Part shown: positions 1-50,655 of the stretch, one piece after another
How the letters are laid out: every line of letters starts with the position of its first letter
Numbering within the stretch: position 1 is the first letter of the stretch
Origin: Ginglymostoma cirratum
Lineage: Eukaryota
Direction of reading: 5' to 3'
Assembly: GCA_024137785.1 (NCBI GenBank)
Contig: JAHRHZ010000051.1
Location: 9,889,048-9,953,047, forward strand
DNA: 64,000 nt
The notes under the pieces: generated by a model
Seen by the model: only the letters and a program-made list of their open reading frames with translations
Told to the model about the DNA's origin: nothing
Databases searched by the model: none
Program-made: the position numbers and the translations under genes

Positions 1-116
1 CCGAAACGTCAAGCTTTCCTGCTCCTATGATGCTGCTTGGCCTGCTGCGTTCATCCAGCTCCACACTTTGTTATCTTGGATTCTCCAGCATCTGCAGTTC
101 CTATTATCTTTGATAC
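1..116 (+). mobile_element. Penelope-like element 3' terminus (family A), truncated by the window edge
   Basis: ccGAAACGTCaagctttcctgctcctatgatgctgcttggcc...; near-identical to the reverse complement of 44401-44515 and 17401-17515. Confidence 0.8.
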
Positions 117-519
117 AATATGTGAACTAAGGAGTTTGATTTCCTATTGTCAAAACTCTTAAGCTGCCATTGAAACAGAGAGGGTTTTTTTTCAGACTAT
201 TTGTGCATAATGGTTTTCTGTAGGTATCCTTCTGTCTTTAGCCATTCCTGAAGATGATATATCAGTGTCTTACTGACAGTTTCAACTATCTTAATGCAAC
301 TCAATTCTTCTGTTTCTCTTCTATGCATTGTAATGAGCTCAGGCTCTTTCTGCAGCCATTTCAAACAGAGATCTGGCTCAACTAAAGGAGTTTTCTTTCC
401 AGCCAAGTATGAAACCAGTACATTGAATTAAAGATTACATATCACAACTTCAAGATGGTAAGATACAGCCAAAACACGTAAAGCAAAGGTCCCGCAGACA
501 AACATGAAACAGATACTCA

Positions 520-3589: not shown

Positions 3590-4010
3590 TCTGATTTTCA
3601 ATATCTTCTTCCTCATTACTTTACAGCCTTCCAGACCCTACAAATTTCAGATCACAACATAAGTCTGTCAATAAACCTGCTTATCCCATTCACACCTCTC
3701 CCCACCAATCTTTCGTTTCATTACTTATCCCATTAGCAACCTTTTTCCTTACATCATTATCTCTTTTATAATTTATAACCTCTCCCGCTTTCCACCTTAC
3801 CACAGAAATTTCCTCTTGGTCTTAGCCCAGCTGTTCTTTGCTCTGTACTTGTCTAAAATCTGTCACACCTCCTCAAACTTTTGCCAGTCCTGTTGAAAGG
3901 CCATGAGCCTGAGATGCTATTTCTCTTTTTCTCTGAATGAATATTTCCAAACTTCTGAGTATTTCCAGAATTTTCTGTTTATATTTCAGATTTCCAACAT
4001 CTTCAATATT
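3590..4010 (+). mobile_element. Old Penelope-like 3' end with decayed hammerhead
   Basis: Pyrimidine-rich tail followed by ctgttgaaaggccatgagcctgagatgct and the shared ...ctgagtatttccagaattttctgttt...cagatttccaacatct terminus. Confidence 0.45.
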
Positions 4011-4872
4011 TTGCCTTTGTTATATTGTTTTTACCATTGTACTGATCCATATTTTGTTGTATTATTCAGACTCTGTACAAAACTAACAGGCAAATAAGTC
4101 TGACTGGCTAGTGTTGCATGGAGTCAAGTCCCTCTCATTGTAGCTGTCCCATGTAGTTCTGCCTGTCCCTTAATGAGAAGTGCTCATTTCTGACCTCCTT
4201 GACTCAGGACCTGTATTTTACACAATGGTCCCAGTTCCCAAACCACTTCACTCACTCACCAGCTAAAACGTCATTTGCGATCTCATTGGCTCCCCTTTAG
4301 CAACTTAACATTGGGATTAGCATTAACTGCCGTAGGAAGAAACTTCTGTCCCTTCCTCAGCAGCAAGTCCCACTTTAGAGACCCACTAGCTAATCGGATG
4401 TCTAGCAGCTCAGTTGTCCCAGCAGTGCCATCTGTAAGTGGACGCTGTTACTGGAACTGCAGGCAATTTCACCCCACAGAGGGGCTCAGGTTAGTCCGAG
4501 GTCTGGCATCTCAGCAGTTGTCTGAGGTCCAAGTTCATGCGATGGGGGTGGGGAGGATAAAGAATTAAAGGGAGGGAATAGCCATGGGTGCAAGATCCTC
4601 CGATAGGGACAGGAAAGGAGGTCCACCAATTGCCAACCAGCACATGCAATTGAAGCAGCTGGGCTTCCTTCATGGGATTAGCCTTACCCCTGCTAAGGGT
4701 TAACTACTGAAATGAGGCCTTTAGGGAGCTATTAGTTAGCCAGTTAAGGGCTTCAAATGTTCCAACATCAAACATGCCAAATGATGCCTGCCCTATGGGA
4801 GGCCATAGAAATAACACCTGCTGGATTTTACATGATGTCCTGCTTTTAAATCCCAGTCAGGGAGATAAAATT

Positions 4873-5081
4873 CAGAAGTTGCTGGAAAAGCTCATCAGGT
4901 CTGGGAGCATCTGTGAAGAAAAATCAGAGTTAACGCTTCAGGTCTGCTGACCCTTCCTCAGTTCTGAAACGTTAACTCTGATTTTTTTCCTCACAGATGC
5001 TGCCAGACCTACTGACCTTTTCCAGCAACTTCTATTTTTGTTCCTGATTTACAGCACCTGCAGTTCTTTCAGTTTTTATTC
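4873..5081. mobile_element. Fold-back Penelope-associated short element (family B) with hammerhead motif
   Basis: Inverted arms at 4874-4941 and 4964-5033. 10-bp TSD AGATAAAATT at 4863-4872 and 5082-5091. Minus strand reads CTGAGGA-A-GGGTC-agca-GACCT-GAAGCGTT. Confidence 0.85.
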
Positions 5082-5629
5082 AGATAAAATTTAGCCCTGA
5101 GTGTCGAAGGTCCTGACTGCAAGTAGCGACCAGTATTGTTAGGAATGAGTGCTGCATGTTAGTCTAACAAATATCTGACGAGAAACCCATTTATTAGTGT
5201 CTTTGATTTGTCTGATTTCCACAAGCAGGTCTGAACCTATGATTCCTCACGTACTGACCAGGATGACTATTGCAGCAACACAATTATCGATACCAGTAGA
5301 ACTAAAGATTCTGCTCACAGTTCATATTCCTTACATATTCCTTTTTCTGTTTTTTTTTCATTAGTGATATTTTTTCATTAATGGCCCTCACCCCTCCTCA
5401 CATATCTATGGCATTGTACAGGGAATGGGATCCACAAACATTGTATTCTATTTTAAGTCAATAGAGTGATCCAGGATCACAAAGACTTAGCCTGGGAGGG
5501 GCAGCACCCAATCCCTATGCATCTCACCAAAGGCAACTCGACAAAAAACTCGTGGACACTGCCCGCTAAGATTTTCAGGCACCTTGAATCCACAAATGTC
5601 GGCTTGGGATCAGAAGGAAGCATGTCTCG

Positions 5630-6020
5630 CCTGAGTCAGAAAGTTGAGTTCAGGTCCCAGTTCAGGGCTTGTGACCAAAACTCCTGTGCAGAACTGAGGG
5701 AGATCTGCACTGTCAGAGTCGTCGTCTTTAGCATAGAACAACTAAAGCCTCATCTTTTGCTCATGTGGTTGTAAAAGATTCTGTGGCATTATTTCAAAGA
5801 ATAACAGAGGAATGTGTTCTGGCCAATATTTAGGCTTCAATCAACATCACAGAAACAGATTGTCTGGTCAGCATTGCATCGCTGCTTTTGGGAGCGTACT
5901 GCGTGCTTACTGCCTGCTGTCCTGTCTGCATGACAACAGTGACTACCCTTCAGAAAGTACCTCACTGGCTGTGAGACATCTGGTGATCATGAGACGTGCT
6001 CTACCAGTGCAAGTCTTTCT
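5630..6020 (+). mobile_element. Deu-domain SINE (SacSINE1/AmnSINE1-like)
   Basis: tRNA-like head remnant, then taaaagattctgtggcattatttcaaagaa...tggccaatattta...aatcaacatcac, matching the DeuSINE core as I recall it. Confidence 0.65.
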
Positions 6021-6499
6021 TTCTCACAACTCAGCAAGGTTGGAAAATCAATGGCTACATGTGAATGCTTATCTACTAGTGATATTAAGAAGAGCAATAT
6101 ATCTTATCCACAATCATTAAACAGTTAGGATTTTATGATTGTCTATTCAACACCAATTGTACAAAAAAAGTCTCTAAACATTTGAGACATTCCCTTGCTT
6201 TTCAAAATCTTTTACGATAGCTCAATTTTAAAATAGTTATAAAACTTTGCAAAATCAATCAATTGTCAGAAATGATTGAGAGCGCTCATTTAACCTCCTT
6301 ATGACAATCCCCTGCTCCCTGGCTTATTTCTGCCAATTTCTTCTAATCTTTGTTTGTGATTATGCATTTTTCTTAGCATACAAATTGTTTAACAGATTAC
6401 TCTGTATAACTCTTAAGACAACATGCTAATTTAAAAAAAAGACCCATCACAATAGATGCTTCTCTTTAGGTCTTTGTTGAGCAGGCACTGTGTATCTGA

Positions 6500-7910
6500 G
6501 AGGTCAAGACTGTGCATAATCTTAATAACACAGGTCATCTCTATCAACGACAAATCACTTACATTACATTTCCACCCACTTGTGATAACCGTTCACCCCT
6601 TTATTTACCAAGAATCTATCCACCTCTGTATTAATAATGTTGAAAGATTCTGCTTCTACTGTCTTTAATTGAGTTTCAAAGATTTATAACCGTCGGGGGG
6701 GGGAGTGGAATCCTCTTATCTCCTTCTTAAATCAATAACTCCTCACTTTTAGACAGTAATTCCCAGTTCTAAAACAACAAAAGAGAATGTCAAAAGGGAT
6801 CGAGGAGTACATGACAGCCATTACAAAAAGATGCTTAAATGCAACTAAGGGAGGGCCAGAATATTCAAATATATTTGACATTTCAGACAGGTCATTGAAA
6901 TATTCAAAGCCGAAGTAGGCAGAGTTTTGATTGACAAGGGAGTCAAAGTTATAGGGACAGAAAAGAGAACGGAGTTAAAATAACCATCAGATTAATCATG
7001 ATTATATTGTATTGTGGAGCATGAAATGCCAACACATGCTCCTATTTTTATGATCTTCTTTCTGCTCTCACCATGATGCTGATTTTCAAAAAAAAAAATT
7101 CATACACAGGTTGCGAGTATCACTACCAAGTCCAGTATTTATTTCCCATCCCTAATTGCCTTTAAGAAGGTGATAGTGCACTGCCTTCTTGATGCGTTGC
7201 AGTCACATAGTGTGGTGCACAATGCTATTACAGAGATTTCTGTGGGTTCTTAATCAAGCTACAGTAAATTAACAGTGATATAGTTTCAAGTCAGGATGGC
7301 ATAGAACTTGAACAGGAAATTGTAGGTGGTATTGTTCCCACGTATTTGCTGCCCTTGTCCTTTGAGTTGGTAGAGGTCGCAGATCTAGAAGTTGCTGTGG
7401 TCTATCTTGTAAACGGTAGACACTGTTATCACTGTACATAAGTACATGTCATGTCTCAAAATTAATCACATATTATTGAAATGATAATGAGAAGCCTACC
7501 ATTGTCACCATACTGTACCAGTGCAGTCCACATATAACCATAAGGTTAAAACACAATAATAGGTCATTCAGCCCATGAAGTTTGTTTCACCATTCGATGA
7601 GATGATGGCTGATCACATAATTCTTAACCCCGTTTTTGTGCTTTTTTCCCCAAATTCTTTGAGTCTCTTACTGATTAAAAATTGATCTTCTCAGTCTCGA
7701 ATATTCTTAGTGACTCAACTTGACTGTACTCTGCGGTAAATTCCACAGATTCACTAACTTCTGAGAGAAAAAATTCCTCCTCTTGTGCCTTAAATGGGTG
7801 ATCCCTTACTCTGGAATTATGCCCTCTAGTTCTAGACCCCACAGTTGGAAACATCCTCACTGAATCTATCCTTTCAAGATGCCTAAGAATCTTGTATGTT
7901 TTATTGTGAT
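6500..7910. mobile_element. Cluster of degraded CR1 3' fragments (6500-6780 -, 6880-7060 +, 7540-7910 -) and a SINE/LINE tail (7110-7430 -)
   Basis: ORF 7675-7860 (RTRGHN...EFFL) and typical CR1 3'UTR motifs. Confidence 0.65.
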
Positions 7911-9264
7911 GCTTAATGAATTCTTAGACAAACACTTCAAACATAATCTGATAAATTTGGGATGCCTTCAGTAGATTCAATGACACCAATTCTTCTTCTT
8001 AGTTTTAGTCCAAGCTGCTCACACCAAATGGCGAGGGATGCCCACATGAGTCCCTGCCAGAAGATATATTCAGTCTTGACAAACTGTTCAGGTTTATTAC
8101 ATTTTACTTAATAGTAAGTTACATTACATTTGAAATACGTGATAGTCTCTTGTGAGACATCAGACTCAGCATAAGAGTAAAAACGTAACTTAGAAAAAAC
8201 TGGACAGCTTGATCACAACTGATCAGTGGACCTTATCTTGTGATGTCGTTAACCCTGTCTTATACAACATATACTGGAACACAAACTTTCTGAATGGAGC
8301 ATCTAACCACACAAGGTATGATTAAGTCATGAAGTAGTGTGTTTTTAAAAAAATATTACGTTTCATTCTGATTTTAATTAATTTCATTTTAGCTATAGAA
8401 TTGTAGGAACACTTTACACGTTTTTATTTTCTGTTTTCCCTGGGAGCAGATTCCAGTGGTAATGAATGAATTGTTTACATAAGCAGTGTCATTAGCTTTT
8501 ACAAGATTACTTATTCCTTGAAAATTGCACAATTAGGCAAGTTAAGACTGTACAACCTAACCTGACAAGTGTCCAATTAGTCTTAAGCAGCAAGAAACGA
8601 GTGAGGTGCAAAAAGACAGGGCTGTGCATAAATTAGCACCAAGGGAATAATTAAACCAATAAATAGGTCGAAGTTATCCTGACAAATTCTTATCTTGGAA
8701 TATCAGCATATTTAAGAAAATGAATTAATTAGGTCCAGTGTAGATATCATAATTATTAGTTGAATTTATAAGTCTATCTTCTGTCAAATTCTTGAGATTC
8801 CTATATAAATATTTGTAAGCCATCCAGTTGTTGACAACATATGAACAAATGTAAATGAGTGTAAATGAATTAGCAGTGATGAAAATGCAACAAGTTTATG
8901 ATCCAAACTACAGATTGCTAAACAGTGTTTGGGCCAGACTTTCACTCCTGAGCTGGATTTTTCAAGTCAGAAAAATTCCCAAATCAATAGACTTGCATCA
9001 GTTTGAAGGTACGTTGAATTTTCTTTTTGAGGGGGCATAGAGTCAGGCCAATCAAGCTGAAAGCAGATCAGCCACAGAAGACAAGGTAGGACAGTTAGAA
9101 GGCAATATTCATTATAAGAGATTTCATCCCAGTCTTCATCGTTCATACCCCTTCATCACCCCACACCCAGAATCCCCACGCTCATTCACACTCATACCCT
9201 CCATGATTTCCATGCCATCTCTGTGTCAACATGCCCAGTAGACACACAAATATGCATACGACTA

Positions 9265-10645: not shown

Positions 10646-11497
10646 AATTATTTGACTGCCTTCTGTTTCAATGCCTTTGTCCTTCCATTTCTTCTCAGAA
10701 CCCCATCCTAGAAAAGTTAACTGCGATAGGAAATTAACTCCTCAAACAGTAGCTCGGCCTCTGCAAGAGCTGTCAAGTGATTGCCCCTGCCTAGTTTTCA
10801 GCTGCTCTACCCATGTGTTGTGCTGACACTACACAGCAAACTGGCTGCCTTTCTGTACGTATTTATGTATCGAACCTTTACAACAATGTGAATTTTGCAG
10901 TGAAATAAAAGATGCACAAAAAAACTGGGACAACTGGGACTAAGTTGTCCCAGAAAGACTTAACAGACCAACTTGACATAATTGGGCCATTCCTAGTCAT
11001 AACAGCACAATTTTGAAATTAAGGAATGATAAAATTGAAATTATGGCAGAAAATAAGACCAACAAAATATCAAAGGATAAATGATTATTATAGAATCCTA
11101 TAATCATACTTGATAGAAGGGATCCTTCAGCCCATCAAGTTTGCACTGCCAGAAGTACATTACTTCCTACACTAGTCCCTCTTTCCCACACTCGGCCTGC
11201 AGCCTTGAATGTTGTGACATTTCATCCTTATACTTTTTAAAGGTTGTGAGATTTCCTGCCTCAACTACCCTCCCAGGCAGTGTATTTCAGATTTCCACCA
11301 CCCTCTGGGTGAAAACGTTTTTCCTCAAAACCCCTCTAAGCCTCCTGCCTTTCACTTTAAAATTATGTCCCTTTGTTATTGACCCTTTGACTAAGAGAAA
11401 CAGCTGCTTTCTATTCTCCTTATTCGTGCCCCTCATAATCTCTGCCTGGTCCTCTCTCAACCTTCTCCGCTCCAAAGAAAACAACCTGAGCTTATCT

Positions 11498-11652
11498 GGA
11501 CAAAAACCGAAAGAACTACGGATGCTGTAAATCAGGAACAAAAACAGAAGTTGCTGGAAAAGCTCAGCAGGTCTGGCAGTATCTGTGGAGAGAAAAATCA
11601 GAGTTAACATTTCAGGTCCAGTGACCCTTCCTCAGAACTCTGTTTTTGTTCC
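11498..11652 (-). mobile_element. 155-bp Penelope-associated short element (family B)
   Basis: 10-bp TSD GAGCTTATCT at 11488-11497 and 11653-11662, inside a CR1. Homologous to 4873-5081 and 31433-31536. Confidence 0.9.
11599..11642 (-). ncRNA. Minimal type-I hammerhead ribozyme motif
   Basis: Minus strand: CAGAGTT-CTGAGGA-A-GGGTC-ACTG-GACCT-GAAATGTT-AACTCTG. This gives a 7-bp helix I, the CUGANGA box, a 5-bp helix II with tetraloop, the GAAA box and a GUU triplet. One C>T change in the ACGT palindrome. Confidence 0.8.
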
Positions 11653-12169
11653 GAGCTTATCTAGCCTCTCTTCTTGGCTAAGATGGAGCATTTTAGCTAA
11701 CTCCTGGTGAAACTCCTCTGCACTCCCTCCAATGCAATCATATCCTTCCTATAGTGCAGTGACCAGGACTGCACACAGTACTCGTGCTACAGCCTTACCA
11801 ACGTTCTGTACAGCTCCAATATAACCTCCTCTTATAATCTATGTCACGAGTGATAAAGGCAAGTGTCTCTTACGCCTTTTTGACTACCCTATTAACCTGT
11901 CCTGTCAGGCATCTGTGGATAAGCACCCCAAACTACCTCTATTCCTCTGAACTTCCGAGTGTCTTGCCATTCATTGACTACTCCCTTGTCTTGTTCCTTC
12001 TTCCAAAGGGCATCATCTCAAATATTTGGTGAGAATAAACCTAAGCAAAATCTAAATCAGGAGAAGGGCACAAGGAAGCCATGTGATTGAAAATTGTTTT
12101 CTACTTTTTCGCTTGAAGTTTAAATTTATAAAAAACAGGAAGCTTGAAAAAAATCCAACCTAATGAAGA

Positions 12170-17130: not shown

Positions 17131-17400
17131 TGGGGTCTTAGGGGTAGATGGGAATGTGGAACTTGAAACACAAACAGATCAGCATGACCTTAATGAATAG
17201 CAGGGCTGCCTCAACGGGGCAAACTAGTCTGCCCCCTCAGCTATTTTGTATGTTTGTTTTTAACTGATCCATTAAAATGGAGAACAAAATAAAGCATAGA
17301 ATTTTATTTCAGCATCTAAAGGTTTGTATAACCTATGGACATTTCGTGATGCTGTCTCACTGATGACCCACTGTTAACAAAATAGTATAGCATAAAAATA

Positions 17401-17540
17401 GTATCAGAGATAAAAGGTACTGCAGATGCTGGAGAATCCGAGATAACAAGCATGGGGCTGGATGAACACAGCAGGTCAAGCCGCATCATAGGAGCAGGAA
17501 AACTTGACGTTTCGGGCCTAAACCCTTCATCAGAAAAGCC
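17401..17540 (-). mobile_element. Penelope-like 3' terminus (family A), solo copy
   Basis: Homologous to 1-116, 44401-44517 and 28878-29005. Confidence 0.85.
17503..17537 (-). ncRNA. Minimal type-I hammerhead ribozyme motif with intact core
   Basis: Minus strand: TTTT-CTGATGA-A-GGGT-TTAG-GCCC-GAAACGTC-AAG. All core nucleotides present, palindromic ACGT helix III, GUC triplet. Helix I is short. Confidence 0.78.
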
Positions 17541-18539: not shown

Positions 18540-20710
18540 AGATCTGATTGGTAAGTAGTAGGTATGGTCAGGTAAATATTTACAACTTCTATCACTTACC
18601 AGGCCAGGCAACGTGTTGTACCTGCACGATGTGGGTGCTGGTGGACCCCTTGTGGTTCACAATGACTACATCTACAGCAAGTGTTGGATGCTTGAGGAAC
18701 TTCAGCTCAAAGCTGATGAACTGGAGTCTGACTTCAAACACTGCAACACTTCAGGGAGGGGAGATTCACCTGGATGCTATGTTTCGGGAGGCAGTCACAC
18801 CCTTTAGATTAACTAACTTGAATTTGGTCAGTGGTCAGAGACAGGAGTGAGTGACTACAAATGAGGCAGGTAGAGGGATCCAAGCAGTAGTGCTGAAGGA
18901 GGCTCAGCCCTTGAGCTTGTCTAACAGATTTGAGATTCTTGCTTTCTCTGTGTCGATGAGAATGGGGACTTAGGGAGGATGAGCAAACTGACTGTAGCGC
19001 TATGGTACTGGGAGCATTTCAAGAAGAGGAGGAAAACAGAAATGTAGTTGTACTCAGGGATAGTACAGTCAGGGGAATAGACACTGTTCTCTGTGCCTTC
19101 ATCAGAACTGAAGAGACATCTAGACTCAAAAGATTAGCTTGCTCTCTCTCCACGGATGCTGTCTGACCCACTGTGATCTCCAGCATTTGCTGTTTTCAGT
19201 GCAGAAACCATCATCTGCAATAATTTGCTCCTAAATTCTGTAGGCTGTCCTACTGCCTGGTGCCTGGGTTCAGGACATCTCTTTTGGGCTGCAGAGGAAC
19301 TTGGAGTGGGAGGGGAAAGTTCCAGTTGTTGTAGTGCTCGTCGGTACTAATGATATAAGTAGAAAGAAGAAAGAGGTTCTGCTGAGGGAAAATGAGCAGC
19401 TGGGGGCTAAATTAGAAAGCAGAACCAAAAAGTTAATCATCTCTGGATTACTACCTGGGACATGAGCAAATCGACACAGAATCAAACAAAATTAAAGAGG
19501 TAAACTTGTAGTTCAAAAATTGGTGAGGGAGAAACAGATTAAGATTCACGTGACATTGGCACCAGTACTGGAGAAGGAGGGAGCCATCCTGATGGGATAG
19601 GCACCACCTGAATCATGCTGGGACTAGAGTCCTAGCGAATTGTATAATGAGTTCTGCGGGCAGGACCTTAGATTAACTAATGAGGGGTAGGTTCAGTTGG
19701 TAGCCTTGTTCGTAAGGTATGAAATTAAATCAGTAGCATGATGTAGAGTCAGAAGGCATAGAATCTGTTTTGATAGAGTCGAGGAACCACAAAAGAAAAA
19801 AACTCCTGATGGGACTGTAAATTACAGTGTAATTTGGACAGGGTGAATAAGTGGGCAAATGCATGGCACATGCAATATAAGGAGGATAAATATGAGGTTA
19901 TCCACCTTGGGCGTAAAAATAGAAGGCAGATTATTATTTGAATGGCTATAAATCGAGAGAGAGGAATATTCAATGAGACCTGGACGTCCTCATGCACCAG
20001 TCATTGAAAGTAAGAACGCAAGGGCAACAGGCAGTAAAGAAGACAAACTTAATGTTGGCTTTTATAGTGAGAGGATGGGAATATGGAACAAGGATGTCTT
20101 GCTGAAATTATATGGGGTATTGGTGAGGCCACACCTGGAATATCATGTGCACTTCTGGTCTCCTTATCTGAGAAAGGATTTACTTGTTACAAAGAGGGTG
20201 CAGTGAAGGTTTACCAACTATATTTCTGGTTCAGCAGGCTGACATGAGGAGAGATTGAGTCAGTTAGGATTGTAATTGGAGTTTAGAAGAATGAGGAAGG
20301 AGCTCATTGAAACCGATAAAATTCTAGAAGTTAGATGCAGCGAGTTAAAATTCCACAGGTTAGATGCAGGAAGGATGTTCCCGATGGTGGGGAGTCTAGA
20401 ATCAGAGAACATAGTTTAAGGAAAAGGGGTAAACCTTTTTAGGCTGAGATGAAGGGAAATTTCTTCACCCAAAGAGTGGTGAGTCTGGGGATTTCACTGC
20501 TACAGAAAACTGTTGAGGCCAAACCATTATGTGCCTTCAAGAAGGAGGTAGATATAGCTCTTGTGGCTAAAGGGATCAAGGGATATGGGGGTGTGGGCAG
20601 CATTAGGGTATTGGGCTCAATGATGAGTAATGATCATAATGAATGGTGGGTAGGCTAGAGGGGTCAAATGACTGACCCCTGCTCCTATTTTCTATCTCCC
20701 CGTGTTTCTA
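18540..20710 (+). mobile_element. Internally deleted CR1 retaining ORF1 (zinc finger/coiled coil plus SGNH esterase) and the ORF2 3' end
   Basis: CCTCTMW...KCWMLEELQLKADELE; VVVLRDSTVRGIDTVLC; CLPGA; VVVVLVGTNDI; IISGLLP; HLNHAGTRVLA; then LYGVLVRPHLEY and FFTQRVV. Confidence 0.85.
19097..19235 (+). mobile_element. Short Penelope-associated element with decayed hammerhead, inserted in CR1 ORF1
   Basis: cttcatcagaaCTGAAGAgacatctagactcAAAAgattagc...cacggatgctgtctgacccactgtgatctccagcattt interrupts the esterase frame. Confidence 0.6.
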
Positions 20711-25234: not shown

Positions 25235-26402
25235 GTAGACCATACTGTCAGCAAAAGGACAGATCATAGGAACTGGGACCTAAGTTTGTACCAGAGTTAC
25301 CCTTGAATCCAGCATTGTGCTTAGTAAAGGTTGTTGTTGTTCACTGACGTAGATAGAGACTACGTGCTATCAACAAACCAGACATGTTCATACAACGAGA
25401 TGGCAGTGGTTCACAAGCCCTTTATTAGGACTTCCAATCATTGCTTTCAAAAACAGCCAGACATTCGAAGCAGTCAGCCAGCCAGCAAGGATTCTCAGGG
25501 AACCACTGAGCAATAAACAGATTTTAGAGTCGGTGACATCAGAGGAACAGGAAAGTCGACATTTTGGGTTTACACCCTTCATCTGGGGAGGGGGAAGGGA
25601 GCTGCGAAATAAATAGAGTGAGGAGGAATGGGGGTCAGGGAAGGTGGGTAGTATGGTGATACGTGGAAGCCTCTTCCAAGGATGCCAACTTTGAAGAAGT
25701 TATCCTCCTCCCTCTGGAAAGACTTCAGTGGGTCTCTCTCCCACTGCAACCCCCTGGTGATCTCCTCCGCCCTGAAGCTCTTCGACCACATCCTGAAACA
25801 AACCCATTACTATAGCCACATCTCCTTTCCCAGTACCAGTCTACCCAACTGGCCCGTACCCCATGGGCACCAACAACATCCAGACAATTCCAATTTGGAC
25901 CAAACTGTGATAACCGTTATTTACAGTACATCCAGAGCCTCCAGAAACGGTTTTCTCTGCAGATCCTCAGCTCCACACTCACAGCCATATGCTGGCATCT
26001 TCTCTCACTACAGACAGCCCTACCCCAGCTCACAGCCTCTCTCTCCCAGACCTGCAAAGGACCTCTACTGTTTTTGATTCTTCACAGAGTCCATACCCTC
26101 AACCAATGTTTTTTCTCTGCCCAAATGACATCAAGGATTGTAAGTATGCCAAACTCACTTGTACTTACTTCGAAACACAGGCCTCCTCCACTACCCTAGA
26201 CCCCAACCTGATCCACGACCTTCTCCTTAATTCGCTCGGCGCCATTAACCATGCGGTCACCTCAGCTTCTCCCTGTCACTTCTGCTGATGTCGAAAACGC
26301 TGTTTCCACTGCTGACACTGACCATATCGCTACTCTCACTTCCACCCATGTGACCATTCCCATACACGCACCTGCCCCGAGACTGTCTCCACCCCCACCC
26401 CC

Positions 26403-26448
26403 AGCTCCAGCCCTACACCTAGCTCCAGCCCTACACCTAGCTCCAGCC
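26403..26448 (+). repeat. 18-bp tandem repeat (agctccagccctacacct) x2.5 inside the Penelope element
   Basis: Read directly from the sequence. Confidence 0.85.
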
Positions 26449-27592
26449 CCAAGCCCTACCAGCTTTTCATCAACTTCCCCCAGACCCCGCTCTCACTGAG
26501 GACAAATGGTCAGTCCTCAGCAAAGGACTCACCTTCATTTCCCTGTGTCCACATACCAACGAATTCCGCACACATCTGAATGTTGAACTCTTTTTCTGCC
26601 ACCTCCACGCCTATTTCTCTGCAGACCCCTCCTCCCACCTCCAACAAACCCCATCCCCCTGGACACCACCCCACAACCTCCTACCTTCCCTCGACATCTT
26701 CATCTCCAACTGCTGTTGCAACATCAATGAATCTCTCCACCCCGCTCACTCACTCCAACCTCTCCCCAACAGAACATGCAGCCTTCCACTCCAACCCTAA
26801 CCTCACCATCAAACCCGCGGATAAGGGAGGTGCTATAGTGGTATGGCGCACTGACCTTTACATCGCCGAGGCCAGGTGCCAACTCTCTGACACCTCCTCT
26901 TGCTGTCCCCTCGATTATGATCCCACCCTGATCACTAAACCATTGTCTCCCAGGCCATCCATAACCTTATCACCTCAGGAGACTTCCCACCTTCACCTTC
27001 CAACCCTATCGTTCCCCAACCCCGCACCGCCCATTTCTATCTCCTTCCCAAAATCCACAAAGCTGACTGCCCCGGCCAACCTACTGTCTCTGCCTGCTCC
27101 TGCCCCACCGAACTTATCTCCGCTTGCCCTGACTCTGTCTTTTCTCCCCTGGTCTAGGAACTCCCTACCTATATCTAGGACACCATCCATGCCCTTCACC
27201 TCCTCCAAGACTTGCAATTCCCTGCCCCCCAATACCTCATCTTCACTGTGGACATCCAATCCCTGTACACTTGCATTCCCCACGTGAATAGCCTAAAAGC
27301 CCTTCGCCTCTTCCTCTCCCATAGGCCCAACCAGTCCCCCTCCACTGACACCCTCACCCACCTGACGGAACTTGTCCTTACCTCAAAAACTTTTCCTTTA
27401 ACTCCTCCCACTTCCTACGAACTAAAGGAGTGGCTTCTTTGTAGGATACGTGGAACAGTTCTTCTTCTGCTGTTACACTGGCTCTAACCCCCACCTCTTC
27501 CTCTGCTACATCGATGACTGTATTGGCGCTGCCTCATATTCCCATGAGGAGCTTGAACAGTTCATCAACTTTTCTAACACCTTTCACCTCAA

Positions 27593-27708
27593 CATATGGA
27601 TGATAATGGAATAGCGTAGGTTAGATGGGCTTCAGATTGCATCGACCTGTGAAACCAACATCGAGGGCTGAAGGGCCTGTACTGCACTGTAATGTTCTAT
27701 GTTCTATA
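27593..27708 (+). mobile_element. CR1 3' terminus inserted into the Penelope RT
   Basis: ...gagggctgaagggcctgtactgcactgtaatgttctatgttcta tail interrupts the FH..LKFTW motif. Confidence 0.8.
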
Positions 27709-29399
27709 ACCCTCAAATTCACCTGGACCATCTACGATAGCTTCCTCCCCTTCCTGGACCTCTGTCTCCATCTCTGGTGACCGTCTGAGCACCGACATCT
27801 ACTTCAAACCCACTGACTCCCACAGCTACCTAGACTACACCTCCTCTCACCCACCCTCCTTCAAGAATGTGAACCTCTACTCCCAATTCCTCCACCTCCA
27901 CATCTGCTCCCAAGATGGAGAGCTCCACTCCCGCGCATCCCAAATGTCTTCTTACTTTAAGGACTGCAACCTGCCCTCTCTGTTGATCCACAATGCCCTC
28001 AATTGCATCTCTTGCATTTCCTGCCCTTCTGCCCTTATACCCTCTCCCCCAACAAAAATAAAGACAGAATCCTGCTTGTCTCCATCCCACCGACCTCCGC
28101 ATCCAGCGTATCATCCTCCACCACTTCCAACACCTACAATCTAAGCCCACCACCGAAGAGATATTTCCCTCCCTATCCCGGTCTGCCTTTAATAGGGACC
28201 ACTCTCTCCAAGACTCCGTCATCCACTTTACACTCCCCACCAACCCCACCACACCCGGCACCTTTCCCTGCAACCGCAGGAGGGTCTACACCTGCCTTAC
28301 ACTTCTCCCCTCACTTCCATGCAAGGCCCAAGACAAACTTTCCAAATCCGATAGGGGCTAACCCGTACATCCTCTGATCTGATCCGCTGTATCCATTGCT
28401 CCCAATGTGGCCTCCTCTATAATCGGTGAGACCAAGGTTAGACTTTGTGACCAATTTGCGGAACATCTGCACTCTGTATGCTATAATCAACAACACTTTC
28501 CGGTCGCCAACCATTTAAACTCCCCCTCCCACTCCCTGGGTGATATGTTCATCCTGAGCCTCCTCCAGTGCCACAATGACACCACCTGCAAACTGGAGGA
28601 GCAGCACCTCATATTCCGCCTTGGGAGCCTACCGCCCAATGGCCTAAACATAGAATTCACCAGTTTCAACATCTCCTCACCCTTGGCCTCATCCCCTATC
28701 CAATCCTCCCCCTAATCGCCACTTCCTTGATGGGACACAACCTGTCCATCTTGCCTCGCACCTATCCGGCTTACCATCCCACTACTCCCTACCTACACTC
28801 ACCATCCCACCTACTTTCCCCCAGCTCCATCCCCCCTCCCTGTATAAATTTCCCAGCCCCCATCCCCCTCCCCAGTCCTGATAAAGGGTGTAAATCCGAA
28901 ACACCAACTTTCCTGCTCCTCTGATGCTGCCTGGCCTGCTGTGTTCCTCCAGCTCCAGACTGTGTTATCTCTGACTCCAGCATCTATAGTTCTTGCTATC
29001 TCCAAGGTTTTAGAATAGGGCAGTGCTGTGGCCAGGAAGGAACTCCACAATTCATCAGCCATACAGTGAGGACGTGGGGAAAGCCCACAGCAGGGAACAT
29101 ACTGACAGCTCCCACTTGAGACTGCAGAAGACAGAAAACTAGAGAATCAGCTAGCTGGCCAGTGAGTGCTCAGCGAGCAACTACAATATGTAGAGCTGGG
29201 CCATAAAGGCAAACACAGAAGTTCCGACACCACAAAGCACAGAGAAGGGCGAACACAGTCAACACCATTGCCTTGGGTCTACATGGCAGCTGAGAGGACC
29301 CTATTGACAGGAGATTTGCCCAGTAAATAAATGTAAGGGTCAGGAGTGGCAATGAAAGAAGTCATTTCAGAACAGTCTGACCCAGATAAAGAATTAAAA

Positions 29400-31432: not shown

Positions 31433-31536
31433 ATGAACAAAAACAAAGTTGCTGGAAAAGCTCAGCAGGTCTGGCAGCATCTGTGAAGGAGAAAACAGAG
31501 TTAATGTTTCGGGTCCGGTGACCTTTCCTCAGAATT
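31433..31536 (-). mobile_element. Family-B short element with hammerhead motif
   Basis: Minus strand CTGAGGA-A-AGGTC-ACCG-GACCC-GAAACATT-AACTCTG. TSD-like agaaaatgttt (31422-31432) and agataatgttt (31537-31547). Confidence 0.85.
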
Positions 31537-31999
31537 AGATAATGTTTGTTTTCTATGCTTCTCTTTAAGTGCTACTTTTAAAACAAAGACTTGAGTTTCC
31601 ACAGCACCTTTTCGAGATCCTATGGCTCTTCACACACAATGAATTGCTTTGAAATGGCATGTAGCAGACGTGTTGACTGTTCAGCAAGACCAATGAGTCA
31701 GGGCTTTCTGATTGGCTGTATATTTCATGCTCTTGAGCTGAAACTGGTCAAAGTTAGAGAATGGAGTGAGGGAACAGAGTTTAAGCTACACTGCACGTTC
31801 TGGATGTACGTCTCCCTGACAGACTGTGAACTAATCGAGGCTTCGAAACTAATGCAGCACATTTATCTGCACTTTCAACAGAAAGGACAGCCTCCAGTTT
31901 TTCCCATCATTTTTCCAGTCTCCACTCCCACCAGCTCACCTTCAATTTATAAAGGAACATGAATTCAAAATAACAGAAATGGTTGCATCAGTATCTAGA

Positions 32000-32460
32000 G
32001 GGATGCACTGATGTGGTTTTAATGTTGCAAGATTAGCAATCCAGAAACCCAGACTAATAGACGTGGACAATCAGAGCTAGTGCTCGGAGGACATGGGTTC
32101 CAATCCCACCAGGACCATTGAAAATTACATTAAGAATTTGGAATTAAAAACTGGTCGCAGTTAAAACCTAGGGAAAGAAATGGGCCATTCTTGGTTGGCC
32201 AACATGTGACTCCAGCTCCACAGCAATGCTAAACAAAAACCGAAAAAACTCCAAATGCCGTAAATCAGGAACAAAATTTCTTCACAGCTGCTGCCAGACC
32301 TACTGAGCTTTTCCAGTTACTCCTGTTTTTGTTCCACAATAATGCTGTTGACATTGAAATCTCTTCTGAAATGGCCTAGTAAGAAATTCTGTTCAGCTGC
32401 AATTGATGATCGGCTATAAATGCTGGCTTCCATGGTGACGCTTAAAACCACAATAAAGAA
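32000..32460 (+). mobile_element. tRNA-SINE interrupted by an internally deleted fold-back family-B element (about 32231-32335)
   Basis: SINE head and tail motifs. The insert is flanked by tccacagcaatgct and tccacaataatgct. Confidence 0.75.
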
Positions 32461-38362: not shown

Positions 38363-38707
<345 letters not shown>

Positions 38708-39147
38708 TCAAGTGTGGATATTTTATTCAAAAAATAATTTTGTGATATTTATGTCCCAAACAAATCGAAACATTCCCTTCAAATACAGATGCCAATGAGA
38801 TTGTGTATTATCATTTCAGATCTCGTTTGGAGCAACCCACAATTGTTGCGGGATATCAATAACAAGCAGTCGAACTAAACAGAAATCAACACACTTGCTC
38901 CAAATGCACTGACAAAACTGAAAAAGGTGCAGCAATCATGTCCCATTCCTCCCAGCTACCACAGAATAGGTACAAAGCTTCCTCAGTTATAATTGGTGTG
39001 TGAATTTGAACAGAAAGCTGCAAGCTGTTATTCCTTTCTCTGTGACCACATTATACCAGCAGAATCTTGGAAACTCAATAAATCTGAACTTAACCTTCAG
39101 GGTAAGAAAATCTAACGCCAAGGAGGCCCAATGCACAAATAATGTAC

Positions 39148-41760: not shown

Positions 41761-44400
41761 AAAAATATTGGCTCCCACCTCCTATCTCTGCAATTAGCAC
41801 CCTAACTTAAACCGTCCTTTCCTCTCCACAGTCCTCATAATCCTCACCTTTGCAATGAATTGTTATGACTTTTGTTGCTTTAGCCACATCCAACTCTCAG
41901 CTCCAATCTGACTTGTTCAGAGCCACCAAAAGATTATTTTTGAGGTTGTGATTTCCATCGAGTTATCACTACTGCAATCTCAGTTCAAAACAATTCACCC
42001 CGATTCTCCATCACTTCCAGGATCCAACTCTGTAGAATCACTGTCATGTGCTCCCATTCCTAATGGTTACAATTTGGCCAGCATATCTCTAGATACAGTT
42101 CCTTGTTCCACCCCAGGCTGTCACATGCAGTGTTCATCATGGTTTGTTCTTAGTGCTCCCTTTTTATCTACTTAACATGTTGCATCCTAACTACATAAAG
42201 CAGACAGATAGCCAATATTGAACTATTAACAAATTAACCTCTCCATAGCCACCCCCCCCCCCCAACAAATCTGTATCGAACTACTTGACATTAAATTGTG
42301 GATGAGTCAGACATTCCTCCATTCAAACTTTAGAGAGACCAAAACCACATAAGGGAAACCTGTAAGCGTGCAGGAGAAAGTTTCCTGGAAAGAGTCAGGA
42401 AACCATGTAATTTATTTCCTGGATTAGTAGTAGAGGCAGATCCGATGCCAACATTCGTGATTAGCATTGGTAGTTGAATGAACAAAAACAAAAACAAAAA
42501 CAAATGGAAGTGTCTTGAGCTGATGCTGAGTTTAATTAAGGCTACTTGCTCATATAGAGGGTAAGCACCGACAGACTGCTTGGCTCGAATGACCATTTTT
42601 TCTGTATTGTAGTTTCTAAGCATTAGTCATTTCCCATCAATAGCTTCATACACGTTACAAGTTTAATTCCTTCTTCTCTATTTTTGAGACGGAGTAAAAC
42701 AGTGTCCCATCGTGCCTTTGCAATCTTTTCTGAGCCTTATTCAGGTCCTGGTGTCCTCATCCTATTACCACTTGAGATCTTCTTCTCCTTATTCTTGTCA
42801 AGACCCCTGCCTTTGTTACTTCTGTTCTCATCTTAATAAACATCCCAAACAAGAAAAAAAAAGTCTACTTGAATATGCTCTTGGGCATTTCTTAATCACT
42901 CTCTTTTTGGTTTGTGTCCATTTTGCCTCTGTTGTCTAAATATTTCTGCATTTAGACAATCATTCTACAGGAAAACTAACACTTGCCAGTGGAATCATTA
43001 AAAAGGATCTTCTTGTCTGTTACCCAGAGGTCAAATTGCATCCAGTACCATCAAGAACATTGTCAAAGCTCAGTTCACTTTTAGGTCACCTTGCCAATAA
43101 TCTTTCCTGCCACAACGTCCTAGTTGTCTAACGCAGAATGTAAATAACACTGAATAAAGAGAGACATGTGATCAAAGCTTTTCATCTTGTATTCGTTAGG
43201 ACAGATGTATATTCACTTTCAAGTGCCAGTGTGATACCAGGTACAAAGGCCATATAAGCCTAATTGCTAATCATACCAACCAGCACATGCTTTAGCTTGT
43301 TCATAATTGGCAGAGCATTGACAGTTGCGAAGGCACCCTGTACTTGCAAGACTCTGATCATGATGTCCAATGTTGGACATGAACCTGCAATTAAACAGAA
43401 CTAGCTGAACAATTCAAATATGCCAAGAATTACAGATCAGACATGGTGAGCCAAAGGGCCTGTTCTTGTGCTGTGCGGTTCTACGGTCTATGCACACTGA
43501 TAACCAATTTAAGATGATGATCAGCCAGGATTGTAACGTGGCTCATTGGCACTTGTTACAAGTAACATGTATTGACAAGCAAGGATTCATCCTCTGCAGG
43601 GAAAAAGTAACCTATAGAAGCATTTTCTCATTTTTTGGATTAATCAGATGGGTGGTGGCAATGGTTCCCAGGTGAATTCTCCATGGCAACACCTCAACTA
43701 GAGTTGACTTGCCAACCAGACAGCACCCTTTCCTCCTGCAGTGTAAACTGTTCCTCCCTTTGAAATTAAACATTTTTGCATCTGTCCTGACAACAAAAAG
43801 AAAAATCTTTGACAGCATGTCTCTTTTTCTGCAAACAAGAATCCAATTTATTATTTGACCGTGGACACGGTCAACTTGCAAAGTTTTTGAATTTTGGAAA
43901 GATGTAAAAGCGTGTAATAGCTATAATACTTGTACAAAACAAAACGATTTTCAGTTCTATGACTTTGCACGAGGTGAGTAGAGACAAAGTACTTTTAAGT
44001 AATCTGGTCTTAATGGTGAAGTATAATGAGGCTAGGGTTTGCAGAGGTAGTCAAGTTCCTCATTTTAAGACTTCACACTGTCATTTTTGCATACTTTAAA
44101 TTTAGGTTACTTATGATTCGACACTAAAAGGTCACAGCAGCTTGGGATACACATTCAGTTGGAGCTTAGCAGTTTTTTGTGTTGTATATGTGGAAGACTG
44201 AGATAGAGGGCAGCAGGATTTTCCTCAGGACCACTGACAGCAGGACTGGATGGCATGATGACAAATTTTGTGGACATAATGGGACAAAAGATTGACAAAA
44301 TGTGACACGAGAACAACAGGAAATGCACGCAAACATAAGAATATGCAGTAACTACGTTAATGATAAAGCAGATATATGACTAGACAACAGCTGAAGTTGT

Positions 44401-45228
44401 ATCAGAGATAATAGGTACTGCAGATGCTGGAGAATCCGAGATAACAAGGTGTGGAGCTGGATGAACACAGCAGGCCAAGCAGCATCATAGGAGCAGGAAA
44501 GCTTGACGTTTCGGGCCTTTCCCTCCCCACCCTTATCTGCCTTCCGGAAGGACCACTCCCTCCGCGACTCCCTTGTCCGCTCCACACTCCCCTCCAGCCC
44601 CACCACACCAGGCACATTTCCCTGCAACCGCAGGAAGTGCTACGCCTGCCCCCACACCTCCTCCCTCACCCCTATCCCAGGCCCCAAGAAGACTTTCCAC
44701 ATCAAGCAGATGTTCACCTGCACATCTGCCAATGTGGTATACTGCATCCGCTGTTCCCGTTGTGGCCTCCTCTACATCGGGGAAACCAAGCGGAGGCTTG
44801 GGGACCGCTTTGCAGAACACCTGCGCTCGGTTCGCAACAAACAACTGCACCTCCCAGTCGCGAACCATTTCAACTCCCCCTCCCATTCCTCAGATGACAT
44901 GTCCATCCTGGGCCTCCTGCAGTGCCACAACGATGCCACCCGAAGGCTGCAGGAACAGCAACTCATATTTAGCCTGTGAACCCTGCAGCCCAATGGTATC
45001 AATGTGGATTTCACAAGCTTCAAAATCTCCCCTCCCCCAACCGCATCCCACAACCAGCCCAGCTTGTCCCCACCTCCCTAACTTGTTCTTCCTCTCACCT
45101 ATCCCCTCTTCCCACCTCAAGCCACACCCCCATTTCCTATCTACTAACCTCATCCCACCCCCTTGACTGACTGACCTATCTCCTCCCTACCTCCCCACCT
45201 ACACTCACCTTTACTGGCTCCATCCCAG
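44401..45228 (+). mobile_element. Young truncated Penelope-like insertion in KLF10 intron 1: inverted 3' terminus (44401-44517) joined to a GIY-YIG segment
   Basis: ORF 44503-44979: CTSANVVYCIRCSRCGLLYIGETKRRLGDRFAEHL...VANHFN...EQQLIF. CpGs largely retained. A premature TGA precedes the P.G.N end motif. Confidence 0.93.
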
Positions 45229-46779
45229 TTATTCATGGTTTCGTCCTTAAATTTCAAGACGACAGGATTGCTTTCTCTAAACTTAGAAACCTTGCTCAGT
45301 TGAAAGCCAGTGAGCAATGATCAGTACATAAATCAATTGAGTACAATCAATGCACTGCTCAGTCGGCCCAATTCACCAGTGACAATTCTGTTAGCAGTGC
45401 CTTTGACTGATCTACTCCTGCTCTTTGGATTTGGCACACTTCTGGGATGGCTCCCTCCTAGGTTTCACATGAAGGGAAAAGCAGGTCCAACTCTTCAATT
45501 CAATTAGTGTGTTGCCAACTCATGAAATTCCTCCAACAACACTTTAAACTAAAAGTCCCCGAAGCAAGAATCCAATGGCAGGAAGTGACTAGTTTATCCT
45601 TTGAAGGCAGTACTGGGGGCAGCTCCTGGCAAGCCCAAACAACACACAAAGTAACCAACAGTCTGATGTCAGCAAACTCCCTGAAATCTCAAATTTAGTG
45701 AAAGGATACAGGTAAACTAAATGCACTTAAACAAAATCCTTTTGCATTTGGGAATTATTCTCAATTCCCCTTCCTTTTCACCCCACAGTCTGCCAATACC
45801 AACTAGAAAGCCCCAGAAAGCAACAGAGCAATGATTCAAATGCCAATAACCTTGTTACCAGCTCAATGCAGGGGAGCACCCAGCTGCTATTTTAAAACAA
45901 AAATCATACATCGAGAAGACAAAATGATGAGGTTAAAAGCCACAAGTAGGAAGTACGCCAACTACTTATATAGTTACAAGTGTGGTCAGGCCTTCCTATT
46001 AGGTTATCAACAGTTCATAACCATTTGGTTGCATTATCAAGACAGGGAAAATACTCAAAAAAAATACTTTGATCCAAACATAAACAGCTCAAAGAGCAAT
46101 GGCAAGTGCATGTCCCCCACAACACTGGAACAATTGGAAGCATGCAATTCACAAGAATTACTGTAACAACTACACATTTTCAGTCAGTCAAAGAACCTCC
46201 TTTAACAGCACCTTCCAAACTCTCATCTCTACTATCTAAAAGGTTAAGGCAGCGGCTCACCAGCACCTTCTCCAGAGGAAGGATGGACAGAACAACAAAT
46301 GTTGACCTCTATCAGCAATGCTCACATTTCAGAAACAAATAAAACAAAAGAGGCATGTTTGGCTTTTTTTAATTCTGAAACGTTCAAAGGCTTAGTTTAA
46401 ATTTATTACAAAGATGCAATTACCTAGGCCTACTCAATATTGACCTATAACTCAGAATTCAAGTTAGGTGCCAATGAAGTGTTAGTCAATCACATATTAC
46501 CATTATTTATAATAAACACTTGCATTCATCCCACAGCAATCACACAGAATACACTGCAATGCACTTTATATGGATGGTGGAAGTAGTAAAATAAATAAGG
46601 AGTTGAATCATAGAAGACTGAACAACATGGGAGGAGCAAATACCGCAGAAGGTTATAGAGTTAGAGTAGGGAAACAGAAATGAAAATTAACAGAAGAATT
46701 TTTACATTGGTTTCCCAGCAAATCAAAAGCCGGTGTAGATTGAAGAAAGGGTTGTGACGATGGACAGAATAAATTTATG

Positions 46780-48014: not shown

Positions 48015-48145
48015 GAAAAATACCAGTGTCTGTTGTAATCTGAAATGAAAACAGTAAGTACTGGAGAAACTCAGCAGGTCTGATAGGATCTGTAGAGGGC
48101 AGAAGGGTTGACGTTTTGGATCCACTATGACTCCACTCTTCCCAC
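48015..48145 (-). mobile_element. Old Penelope-associated short element with decayed hammerhead
   Basis: ctggagaaactcagcaggtctg...gttgacgttttggatccactatgactc. Confidence 0.6.
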
Positions 48146-48469
48146 ATACCGAGCTTATACAGCACCTTTAACTTTTAGAAGCTGAATAACGTCTGTCACT
48201 ATCATATCTACTGACCATTGCTTCGTTTACAACGTAAGAAATAAGCATCTACTGGAGTTTCAGTCCCATAGGCTCTTGTATACCGGGCGTCCTTAAATAG
48301 GTTACCTCTGCACATGAAGTCAGGGTGATTTTGACTGAAGCTCGGGTCTTTCTCAGACATTATCAGTGGCGTGCAATTCCTAGTAGAAAAAGGCAGACGT
48401 GGATGTGAAGGGAGACCACCACCCCCACTCAGACACACGCCACACAACGTGTGCTTTCTCTGCCTATAC

Positions 48470-50394: not shown

Positions 50395-50655
50395 AAATAA
50401 AACAAGAAAAACTGTGGATGCTAGAGATCTGAAACACAAAAATCTGAAATTGCTGGAGAAATTAAGCAGGTCTGGTAGCATCTGTGAAAACAGAGTTAAC
50501 ATTTCAAGGGCAATAACTCTCCTTCAGAGCAGAAGGGTCACAGGACTCAAAAAGTTAACTGTTTTCTTTTCACAGATGCTGCCCTCGAAATGTTAACTCT
50601 GTTTTCACAGATGCTACCAGACTTGATGAGTTTCTCCAGCATTTTCTGTTTTTGT
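50395..50655. mobile_element. Fold-back Penelope-associated element upstream of the KLF10 promoter
   Basis: Inverted arms at 50451-50512 and 50580-50641, with decayed head-to-head hammerhead halves between them. Confidence 0.8.

What the first reader, a model, noticed from the sequence alone, without database searches (positions are those of the whole stretch)
11488..11662. Family B: short non-coding mobile element carrying a minimal type-I hammerhead ribozyme (retrozyme-like)
Seen: a 155-bp insertion with a 10-bp TSD inside a CR1. The minus strand folds as helix I CAGAGTT/AACTCTG, CUGAGGA, an extra A, helix II GGGTC/GACCT, GAAA and GUU. Sister copies at 4925-4964 and about 31497-31535 vary in the helix-II loop (ACTG/AGCA/ACCG) but largely keep the stem. 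The by-eye consensus is CTGAGGA-A-GGGTC-N4-GACCC-GAAACGTT-AACTCTG. Established: Penelope-like elements carry minimal hammerheads with a palindromic helix III that cleave as dimers, and non-autonomous ribozyme-bearing retroelements exist in other eukaryotes. Inference: an abundant shark family mobilised in trans by Penelope RT/GIY-YIG. I cannot tell whether it has already been described.
Basis: partly seen in the sequence, partly recalled or inferred. Interest (0 to 1): 0.75.

Follow-up and report, generated by a model that had tools for sequence, protein, structure and literature searches.

The report
Penelope end fragment carrying minimal hammerhead
This is a real 155-base insertion carrying a hammerhead-ribozyme motif, but it is most likely the short end piece of a Penelope-like jumping gene, a kind of ribozyme described in 2014, rather than a new independent ribozyme-driven element, and this lone copy is predicted not to cut itself.

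Summary
Observation confirmed: 155 bp between 10-bp target-site duplications inside a CR1 LINE, with a complete minimal type-I hammerhead core. Correction: only 4 of the 7 helix-I pairs belong to the family; the rest come from a 14-bp inverted arm. The unit is very abundant (65,000-74,000 contigs laid in each of two large runs) and aligns end to end (88/126 identical, z 10) with the 3' end of a decayed full-length RT/GIY-YIG Penelope element in the same window. It shows Penelope hallmarks: two 3' ends 35 nt apart (optional tail), and head-to-head inversions with the tail on one arm (4 of 4 inverted copies here). No tandem arrays were seen, so it fails the retrozyme definition. The family's own autonomous parent was not assembled; a minority of copies continue into shared upstream sequence. 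One extra, inferred: 5' ends cluster at an initiator-like site 31 nt after a TATA-like box, so short copies may be cDNAs running from the internal RT start to the transcript's 5' end. The scan noted this motif repeatedly before in other shark DNA. Verdict: new member of a known kind; low interest.

The parts
11488..11497 (.). Target-site duplication, left copy (10 bp, CR1 ORF2 sequence)
11498..11639 (-). Sense unit: Penelope-type end (pLTR piece: hammerhead plus about 104 nt, including the optional tail). Family-aligned part 11502-11639
11498..11536 (-). Optional about 35-nt 'tail' between the two preferred 3' ends (11537 and 11502)
   Evidence: loose-end clusters in 4 of 4 runs; arm ends of window copies
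11602..11639 (-). Minimal type-I hammerhead: helix I 11639-11636 with 11605-11602; core 11635-11629; extra A 11628; helix II 11627-11623 with 11618-11614; GAAA 11613-11610; predicted cut between 11606 and 11605
   Evidence: layout as in PMC4209133 fig. S3
11639..11652 (+). Inverted arm (reverse complement of 11535-11548), ends at the short 3' end, joined through a 4-nt microhomology; supplies the outer 3 bp of the apparent helix I
11653..11662 (.). Target-site duplication, right copy
11150..12000 (-). Host: decayed CR1-type LINE, ORF2 C-terminal region (range tested, ends not mapped)
4873..5081 (.). Sister copy, head-to-head inverted, 10-bp TSD at 4863 and 5082; core 4961-4936 on minus strand with one core mismatch
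31435..31537 (-). Sister copy, single arm, short 3' end; helix II base pair broken
32229..32335 (.). Sister copy, head-to-head inverted, both arms stop short of the ribozyme
50396..50655 (.). Older related copy, head-to-head inverted with an extra internal piece, decayed cores
25537..29001 (+). Decayed full-length Penelope-like element of a related family: inverted 5' arm 25537-25659, RT and GIY-YIG remnants 26474-28682, TATA-like box at -31, hammerhead core at 28878, homologous tail to 29001
44397..45230 (.). Related family: GIY-YIG-encoding 3' piece (44518-45057) joined to an inverted end unit (44397-44514); right end approximate
17398..17536 (-). Related family: solo short unit with a perfect hammerhead core

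Best explanation
The insert is a 155-bp, TSD-flanked copy of a hammerhead-bearing unit that is homologous to the end of a Penelope-like retroelement, and it was most likely written into a CR1 LINE by that element's own reverse transcriptase and GIY-YIG endonuclease as a short by-product. Shown: TSD, host, motif, homology, abundance, two fixed 3' ends, inverted arm. Inferred steps: (1) the endonuclease cuts both strands 10 nt apart; (2) one cut end primes reverse transcription at an internal site about 104 nt after the ribozyme cut site and copies intact, uncut RNA through the ribozyme; (3) it stops within a few bases of helix I, probably because the transcript begins there (TATA-like box at -31, initiator-like CAGT at +1), otherwise because it stalls at the ribozyme; (4) the other cut end primes at the second internal site, 35 nt nearer, copies about 15 nt, and the two cDNA ends join through a 4-nt microhomology, which gives the head-to-head arm that lacks the tail. 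In a full-length transcript the two end copies of the motif would pair through the ACGU palindrome and cut as a dimer, perhaps with help from the element's protein; this lone copy, with two decayed CpG positions, would be inactive.
For: Homology of the unit to the 3' end of the window's full-length element: 88 of 126 aligned bases, score 108 against shuffled mean 49, maximum 68 of 1000; that element matches RT and GIY-YIG proteins along 26474-28682 (GIY-YIG above the Pfam cut-off for the 44491 piece). Two 3' ends, 11502 and 11537, are top loose-end clusters in 4 of 4 runs (1588/942, 1140/1587, 301/140, 131/161 contigs), matching the optional 30-40-bp tail (PMC8557442) and the two internal RT starts of the anole Poseidon element (PMC11167929). 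4 of 4 head-to-head copies in the window have a long end on one arm and a shorter end on the other. 13 of the 15 joints shown are opposite-strand joints at 11630-11639. Loose ends behind 11639 spell the same upstream extension in X1, X13 and X2 (agreement 0.37-0.43 against 0.34-0.35 at 11637-11638), and a database gene model (P0060) carries that extension, preceded by a stretch matching antisense Penelope ORF (13 of 28 residues, E 0.001). TATA-like box at -31 in both arms of the full-length element; an A/T box lies at the same distance in the family's upstream extension (read by eye). The motif fits the published consensus, including the extra base after A9 and C-G-U-U at the cut site. In vitro, uncut RNA is the main substrate and the ribozyme needs the protein.
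Against: P0060 may be a spliced model that joins two separate insertions. Most copies stop at the ribozyme, which a short independent transcript would also give. The cluster at 11639 is partly forced by the reference changing there. In Drosophila virilis transcription starts about 120 nt before the ribozyme and the promoter is TATA-less, so a start at helix I is not the known layout. Covariation on 12 window copies was not above its shuffle control (119 of 500 shuffles as high). No cleavage, start site or strand could be read: only contigs were available.
Confidence: 0.78

Rival explanations
1. An independent non-autonomous family (SINE-like, Penelope-derived): short source copies are transcribed on their own and moved in trans by a Penelope enzyme.
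For: Very high abundance and fixed ends; most copies have no shared upstream sequence; no coding parent of this exact family seen; such non-autonomous Penelope derivatives are reported (PMC8557442 passage; bioRxiv 2026.07.22.740005).
Against: A short copy lacks the upstream TATA-like box and, if the anole data apply, the protein-binding region inside the ORF; shared upstream extension in three runs; the same short form exists for the related family whose coding parent is in the window (17398-17536 against 25537-29001).
Confidence: 0.14
2. A true non-LTR retrozyme: tandem repeats cut by paired hammerheads into circular RNA, of which this is a dispersed monomer.
For: Retrozyme arrays are reported in one chondrichthyan genome and have dispersed monomers (its family tables were not visible). 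One 'goes back 91' joint in X19.
Against: No tandem array of the unit in the window (0 of 5 TRF arrays); both ends run into unrelated flanks, not into the next unit; the ribozyme sits intact at the very 5' end, not permuted at the cut site; published retrozymes carry canonical hammerheads.
Confidence: 0.05
3. Chance fold in an unrelated short repeat.
For: No Rfam hammerhead hit; modest fold z; covariation test inconclusive.
Against: Perfect core with 0 matches in 40 shuffles; same core in a coding Penelope end; a second subfamily shows helix II with a G-C pair replaced by A-U and a longer loop.
Confidence: 0.02

Closest known systems
Minimal hammerheads (min-HHR) in pLTRs of metazoan Penelope-like elements (Cervera and de la Pena 2014, PMC4209133)
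   Same: Type-I core, short helix I, extra base between 9 and 10.1, G10.1-C11.1, no helix III but a 2-nt palindrome, U at the cut site common, mostly solo truncated copies, some pairs on opposite strands.
   Different: No shark is in the alignment page or search terms that I saw in its supplement (file 1 not searchable). Abundance here seems above the 4,000-9,000 motifs it reports for coelacanth and frog, though contigs are not copies.
Endonuclease-bearing Penelope-like element insertion units (Craig et al. 2021, PMC8557442; Arkhipova et al. 2013, PMC3846280)
   Same: 5' truncation, head-to-head inverted arm, 30-40-bp tail at one end only, 8-10-bp TSD, solo pLTRs; a TATA plus initiator-like pair was noted in a rotifer pLTR.
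   Different: Here the solo form has a TSD and sharply clustered 5' ends at helix I; the rotifer solo pLTRs without TSD were put down to recombination.
Anole Poseidon element PAc (Frangieh et al. 2024, PMC11167929)
   Same: Internal RT start at two sites some 85-90 nt or more past the ribozyme cut, both strands cut and extended, uncut RNA used as template.
   Different: In PAc the ORF starts inside the ribozyme; the window's coding element has a cysteine cluster between RT and endonuclease, which points to the Neptune/Nematis side (no tree built).
Animal non-LTR retrozymes (PMC7229834; bioRxiv 10.64898/2026.07.22.740005)
   Same: Short, non-coding, type-I hammerhead, related to Penelope pLTRs, long TSD.
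   Different: Defined by head-to-tail tandem units with two or more ribozymes and circular RNA; not seen here.

Membership tests
PLE minimal hammerhead | Core CUGANGA ... GAAA ... UH with helix II and extra base after A9 | tested here: met
PLE minimal hammerhead | Short helix I (2-5 bp) | tested here: met
   4 bp in the family; 7 bp only through the inverted arm
PLE minimal hammerhead | Palindromic positions 15.2-16.2 instead of helix III | tested here: met
   CG in 35-68% of depth in four runs; UG in this copy
PLE minimal hammerhead | Compensatory changes in the helices | tested here: inconclusive
   12 window copies: 5 of 8 pairs with a double change (15 of 500 shuffles), covariation score not above control (119 of 500), best at slide 0; one G-C to A-U change in a subfamily
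PLE minimal hammerhead | Self-cleavage as a dimer | not testable with these tools
   needs an assay; only contigs were available
Penelope-like element end (pLTR) | Homology to the end of an RT plus GIY-YIG element | tested here: met
   88/126, z 10, to 28870-29001; RT and GIY-YIG upstream of it
Penelope-like element end (pLTR) | Optional 30-40-bp tail, at one end only | tested here: met
   ends at 11502 and 11537 in 4 of 4 runs; 4 of 4 inverted window copies
Penelope-like element end (pLTR) | Head-to-head inverted 5' arm and 8-10-bp TSD | tested here: met
Penelope-like element end (pLTR) | Coding parent of this exact family | tested here: inconclusive
   shared upstream extension and gene model P0060; no ORF assembled; no genome held
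Non-LTR retrozyme | Head-to-tail tandem units, two or more ribozymes | tested here: not met
   0 of 5 TRF arrays; 1 of 15 joints shown goes back; contigs can hide arrays
Non-LTR retrozyme | Circular RNA from double cleavage | not testable with these tools
   no raw reads among the 24 runs listed
Rfam hammerhead families | Covariance-model hit | tested here: not met
Neptune/Nematis clade (for the window's coding element) | [quoted passage not shown] | tested here: inconclusive
   cysteine cluster seen in translations; no reference set, no tree

The most novel reading that the evidence does not exclude
Shark Penelope elements start transcription at the first base of hammerhead helix I from a TATA (-31) plus initiator promoter, and their thousands of solo units are not random truncations but defined 'strong-stop-like' cDNAs running from the internal RT start to the RNA's 5' end, with inverted arms made by a second priming event at the second RT start. 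The copies would then be a genome-wide fossil record of the Penelope start site, both RT starts and twin priming. I did not find this stated in the papers opened by searches, nor in the scan's notes.
Probability: 0.4. Interest if true: 0.5.

Novelty: new member of a known kind. Interest (0 to 1): 0.22.

Why it matters
As a ribozyme it is ordinary: Penelope elements are known to carry this motif and most genomic copies are solo fragments. It adds sharks to the list and explains one very abundant short repeat. The part of value is mechanistic: how Penelope elements form solo ends, tails and inverted arms is still open, and a family with many thousands of junctions makes a model for it testable by counting alone.

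Tried and rejected
Rfam: nothing at E up to 1 in the window; only unrelated weak hits on the 201-base region. First pattern search had one N too many and gave 0; corrected. No genome is held, so no genome-wide consensus. Scans of viral, metagenome and prokaryote collections with a tail stretch: 0 loci each; the spare scans were not used. The upstream-extension motif is absent from the window at up to 3 mismatches. Protein searches with the 44-residue open frame across the unit found 4 and 6 proteins, none with RT or GIY-YIG among the 6 scanned; they look like gene models that swallowed the repeat, and P0057 and P0058 look like chance hits; the frame is not taken as coding. Two-strand folding gave strand-swapped helix I but no helix III pairing, so it says nothing on dimer activity. 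Covariation count inconclusive. A splice-acceptor reading of the CAG before helix I (as in D. virilis) was considered: no separate first-exon consensus appears among the loose ends shown at 11637-11639, so not favoured, not excluded. The 7-bp helix I as a family feature: rejected.

Full report
1. What is there. Window 11498-11652 is a 155-bp insert between exact 10-bp repeats at 11488-11497 and 11653-11662. The flanks, tested separately, match consecutive parts of CR1 ORF2 peptides read from other LINE copies in the window, so the repeat is a target-site duplication in a CR1. On the minus strand the insert holds a minimal type-I hammerhead: core 11635-11629, an extra A, a 5-bp helix II with a 4-nt loop, GAAA, two bases, UU, and a predicted cut between 11606 and 11605. 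A descriptor written for this layout finds 2 perfect cores in the window, this one and one at 17533, and none in 40 shuffles. Rfam finds no hammerhead, so the name rests on the descriptor and on the published alignment.

2. Both are CpG sites, so decay in this copy is the likely cause (inference). The 7-bp helix I is not a family feature: 11639-11652 is the reverse complement of 11535-11548, and it meets the sense unit at a 4-nt microhomology. Sister copies have other letters there. The family helix I is 4 bp.

3. The family. Four of 24 listed public runs were laid on 11420-11740 at 80% likeness; all are contigs. 73,887 of 13.3 million, 64,762 of 23.1 million, 9,282 of 1.3 million and 5,216 of 2.3 million records were laid, nearly all of the depth on 11502-11639. 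Contigs are not copies, but 1,588 loose ends with unrelated flanks at one position in X1 put the junction count in the thousands at least. The 3' ends fall at two places 35 nt apart, 11502 and 11537, in all four runs. 13 of the 15 joints shown are opposite-strand joints at 11630-11639 (234 more were not shown); one goes back, one skips. In the window, 4 of 4 inverted copies (this one, 4873-5081, 32229-32335, 50396-50655) have one arm ending at 11498-11503 and the other at 11535-11545 in focal coordinates; the 4873 copy also has a 10-bp TSD. No tandem array of the unit is in the window.

4. Link to Penelope elements. The window holds a decayed full-length element at 25537-29001: an inverted arm, RT and GIY-YIG remnants, then a hammerhead core at 28878 and a tail. 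A second piece at 44491-44976 scores above the Pfam GIY-YIG cut-off and is 95% identical to a whale-shark protein, which suggests a carpet shark. The focal unit aligns end to end with the full-length element's 3' end: 88 of 126 bases, z 10 against 1000 shuffles. That is a related family, 65-70% alike, and it too has solo short copies here (17398-17536). For the focal family itself, loose ends behind 11639 spell the same extension in X1, X13 and X2, with agreement 0.37-0.43 against 0.34-0.35 one or two bases away; by a rough calculation of mine that is some 15-30% of the contigs leaving there. A database gene model, P0060, carries that extension and, before it, 28 residues that match the antisense frame of the window's Penelope ORF (E 0.001); it may be spliced from two insertions, so this is a hint only.

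5. How it most likely works. Published: Penelope elements carry minimal hammerheads in their end repeats, mostly as solo truncated copies, weakly active and only as dimers (PMC4209133); insertions are 5'-truncated, often with an inverted arm and a 30-40-bp tail at one end (PMC8557442; PMC3846280); the anole element cuts and extends both target strands, starts reverse transcription at two internal sites that define the tail, uses uncut RNA, and its ribozyme needs the protein (PMC11167929). Applied here (inference): one target end primed at the far site and copied about 140 nt through the uncut ribozyme; the other primed at the near site and copied about 15 nt; the two joined at the microhomology. 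Why do copies stop at helix I? A TATA-like box lies exactly 31 nt before the A of a pyrimidine-CAGT site in both arms of the full-length element, and an A/T box lies at the same distance in the focal family's extension (by eye); that spacing is the textbook TATA-initiator layout (recalled). Window copies with an intact front begin 1 to 5 nt after that A (by eye, five copies). So the transcript probably starts at helix I, and a short copy is what RT makes when it starts in the 5' repeat. Against: D. virilis Penelope starts about 120 nt further up from a TATA-less promoter; RT stalling at the ribozyme would give similar ends; the 11639 cluster is partly forced by the reference. A lone copy has no partner for helix III and is predicted inactive.

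6. Results against or empty. Covariation on 12 window copies was not above the shuffle control. No Rfam hit. No shark-like DNA in three collections. No raw reads, so no cleavage, strand or start site; the RNA label of X2 and X19 is a guess. The two-strand fold did not form helix III.

7. Comparison and novelty. It works like, and passes the tested features of, a Penelope end with a minimal hammerhead. It fails the tandem criterion for retrozymes (PMC7229834; bioRxiv 10.64898/2026.07.22.740005, which reports retrozyme arrays in one chondrichthyan; its supplementary tables were closed and might list this family). Expansion of Penelope-like elements in whale shark is in print (10.1101/443036). 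Searches gave no paper describing this shark family's ribozyme; Dfam and Repbase could not be searched, so it may be catalogued. Seven earlier notes of this scan on other shark-like DNA reach the same class; they are unchecked AI notes and are not counted as support.

8. What I saw of each paper. PMC4209133: parts 1-2 of 4 of the text, a term search of 2 of 3 supplementary files, and part 2 of 3 of file 2. PMC11167929: parts 1-2 of 4. bioRxiv 10.64898/2026.07.22.740005: parts 1-3 of 5, no supplements. PMC8557442, PMC3846280, PMC2377424, PMC7229834, PMC6765202, PMC6155905, PMC8969392, 10.1101/443036: passages only. Lunse et al. on dimer cleavage: only as cited in PMC6765202. Hammerhead numbering, the TATA-initiator spacing and the term twin priming are recalled.

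9. Verdict. Real feature, known kind, new member. Interest 0.22; 0.5 if the start-site and twin-priming model holds (probability about 0.4).

Noticed in passing
window 25537-29001 (+): Decayed full-length Penelope-like element with an inverted 5' arm; cysteine cluster between RT and GIY-YIG suggests the Neptune side; interrupted near 27656-27707 by a short repeat also found at 57974-58025.
   Followed up: partly
window 38363-40066 (-): Exons of a three-finger C2H2 gene (Pfam zf-C2H2) that reads like KLF10/KLF11 (name recalled, not tested).
   Followed up: partly
window 1-119, 17398-17536, 44397-44514, 28870-29001: Second hammerhead-bearing Penelope end family; the 17533 copy has a perfect core with GUC at the cut site and a 2-nt helix II loop.
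   Followed up: partly
window 3878-4010, 19100-19235, 48030-48155: Three older, more diverged units of the same layout (61-68% identical to the focal unit) with decayed cores.
   Followed up: partly
window 11488-11497 and 4863-4872: Both 10-bp TSDs begin with the same six bases (AGATAA) on the side of the long 3' end; may reflect target preference or end microhomology (two cases only).
   Followed up: no
window 4957-4970 (+): In the 4873 copy the second arm has lost the inside of the ribozyme between two GA dinucleotides, while the first arm keeps it.
   Followed up: no
loose ends behind 11597: A second subfamily with an A-U pair in place of a G-C pair in helix II and a 6-nt loop, present in X1 and similar in X2 and X19.
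   Followed up: no
loose ends before 11502: A shared 8-nt continuation past the long 3' end in X1, X13 and X2: some copies run on, possibly towards the ORF start.
   Followed up: no
P0053, P0055, P0059, P0060, P0061: Public gene models, including a zebra-shark zinc-binding protein isoform (P0055), contain translated pieces of this repeat; the unit has acceptor-like pyrimidine-AG sites, so exonisation or misprediction is likely.
   Followed up: partly
window 29716-30093 (+): 125-residue open frame with coiled-coil-like composition, no Pfam hit.
   Followed up: no
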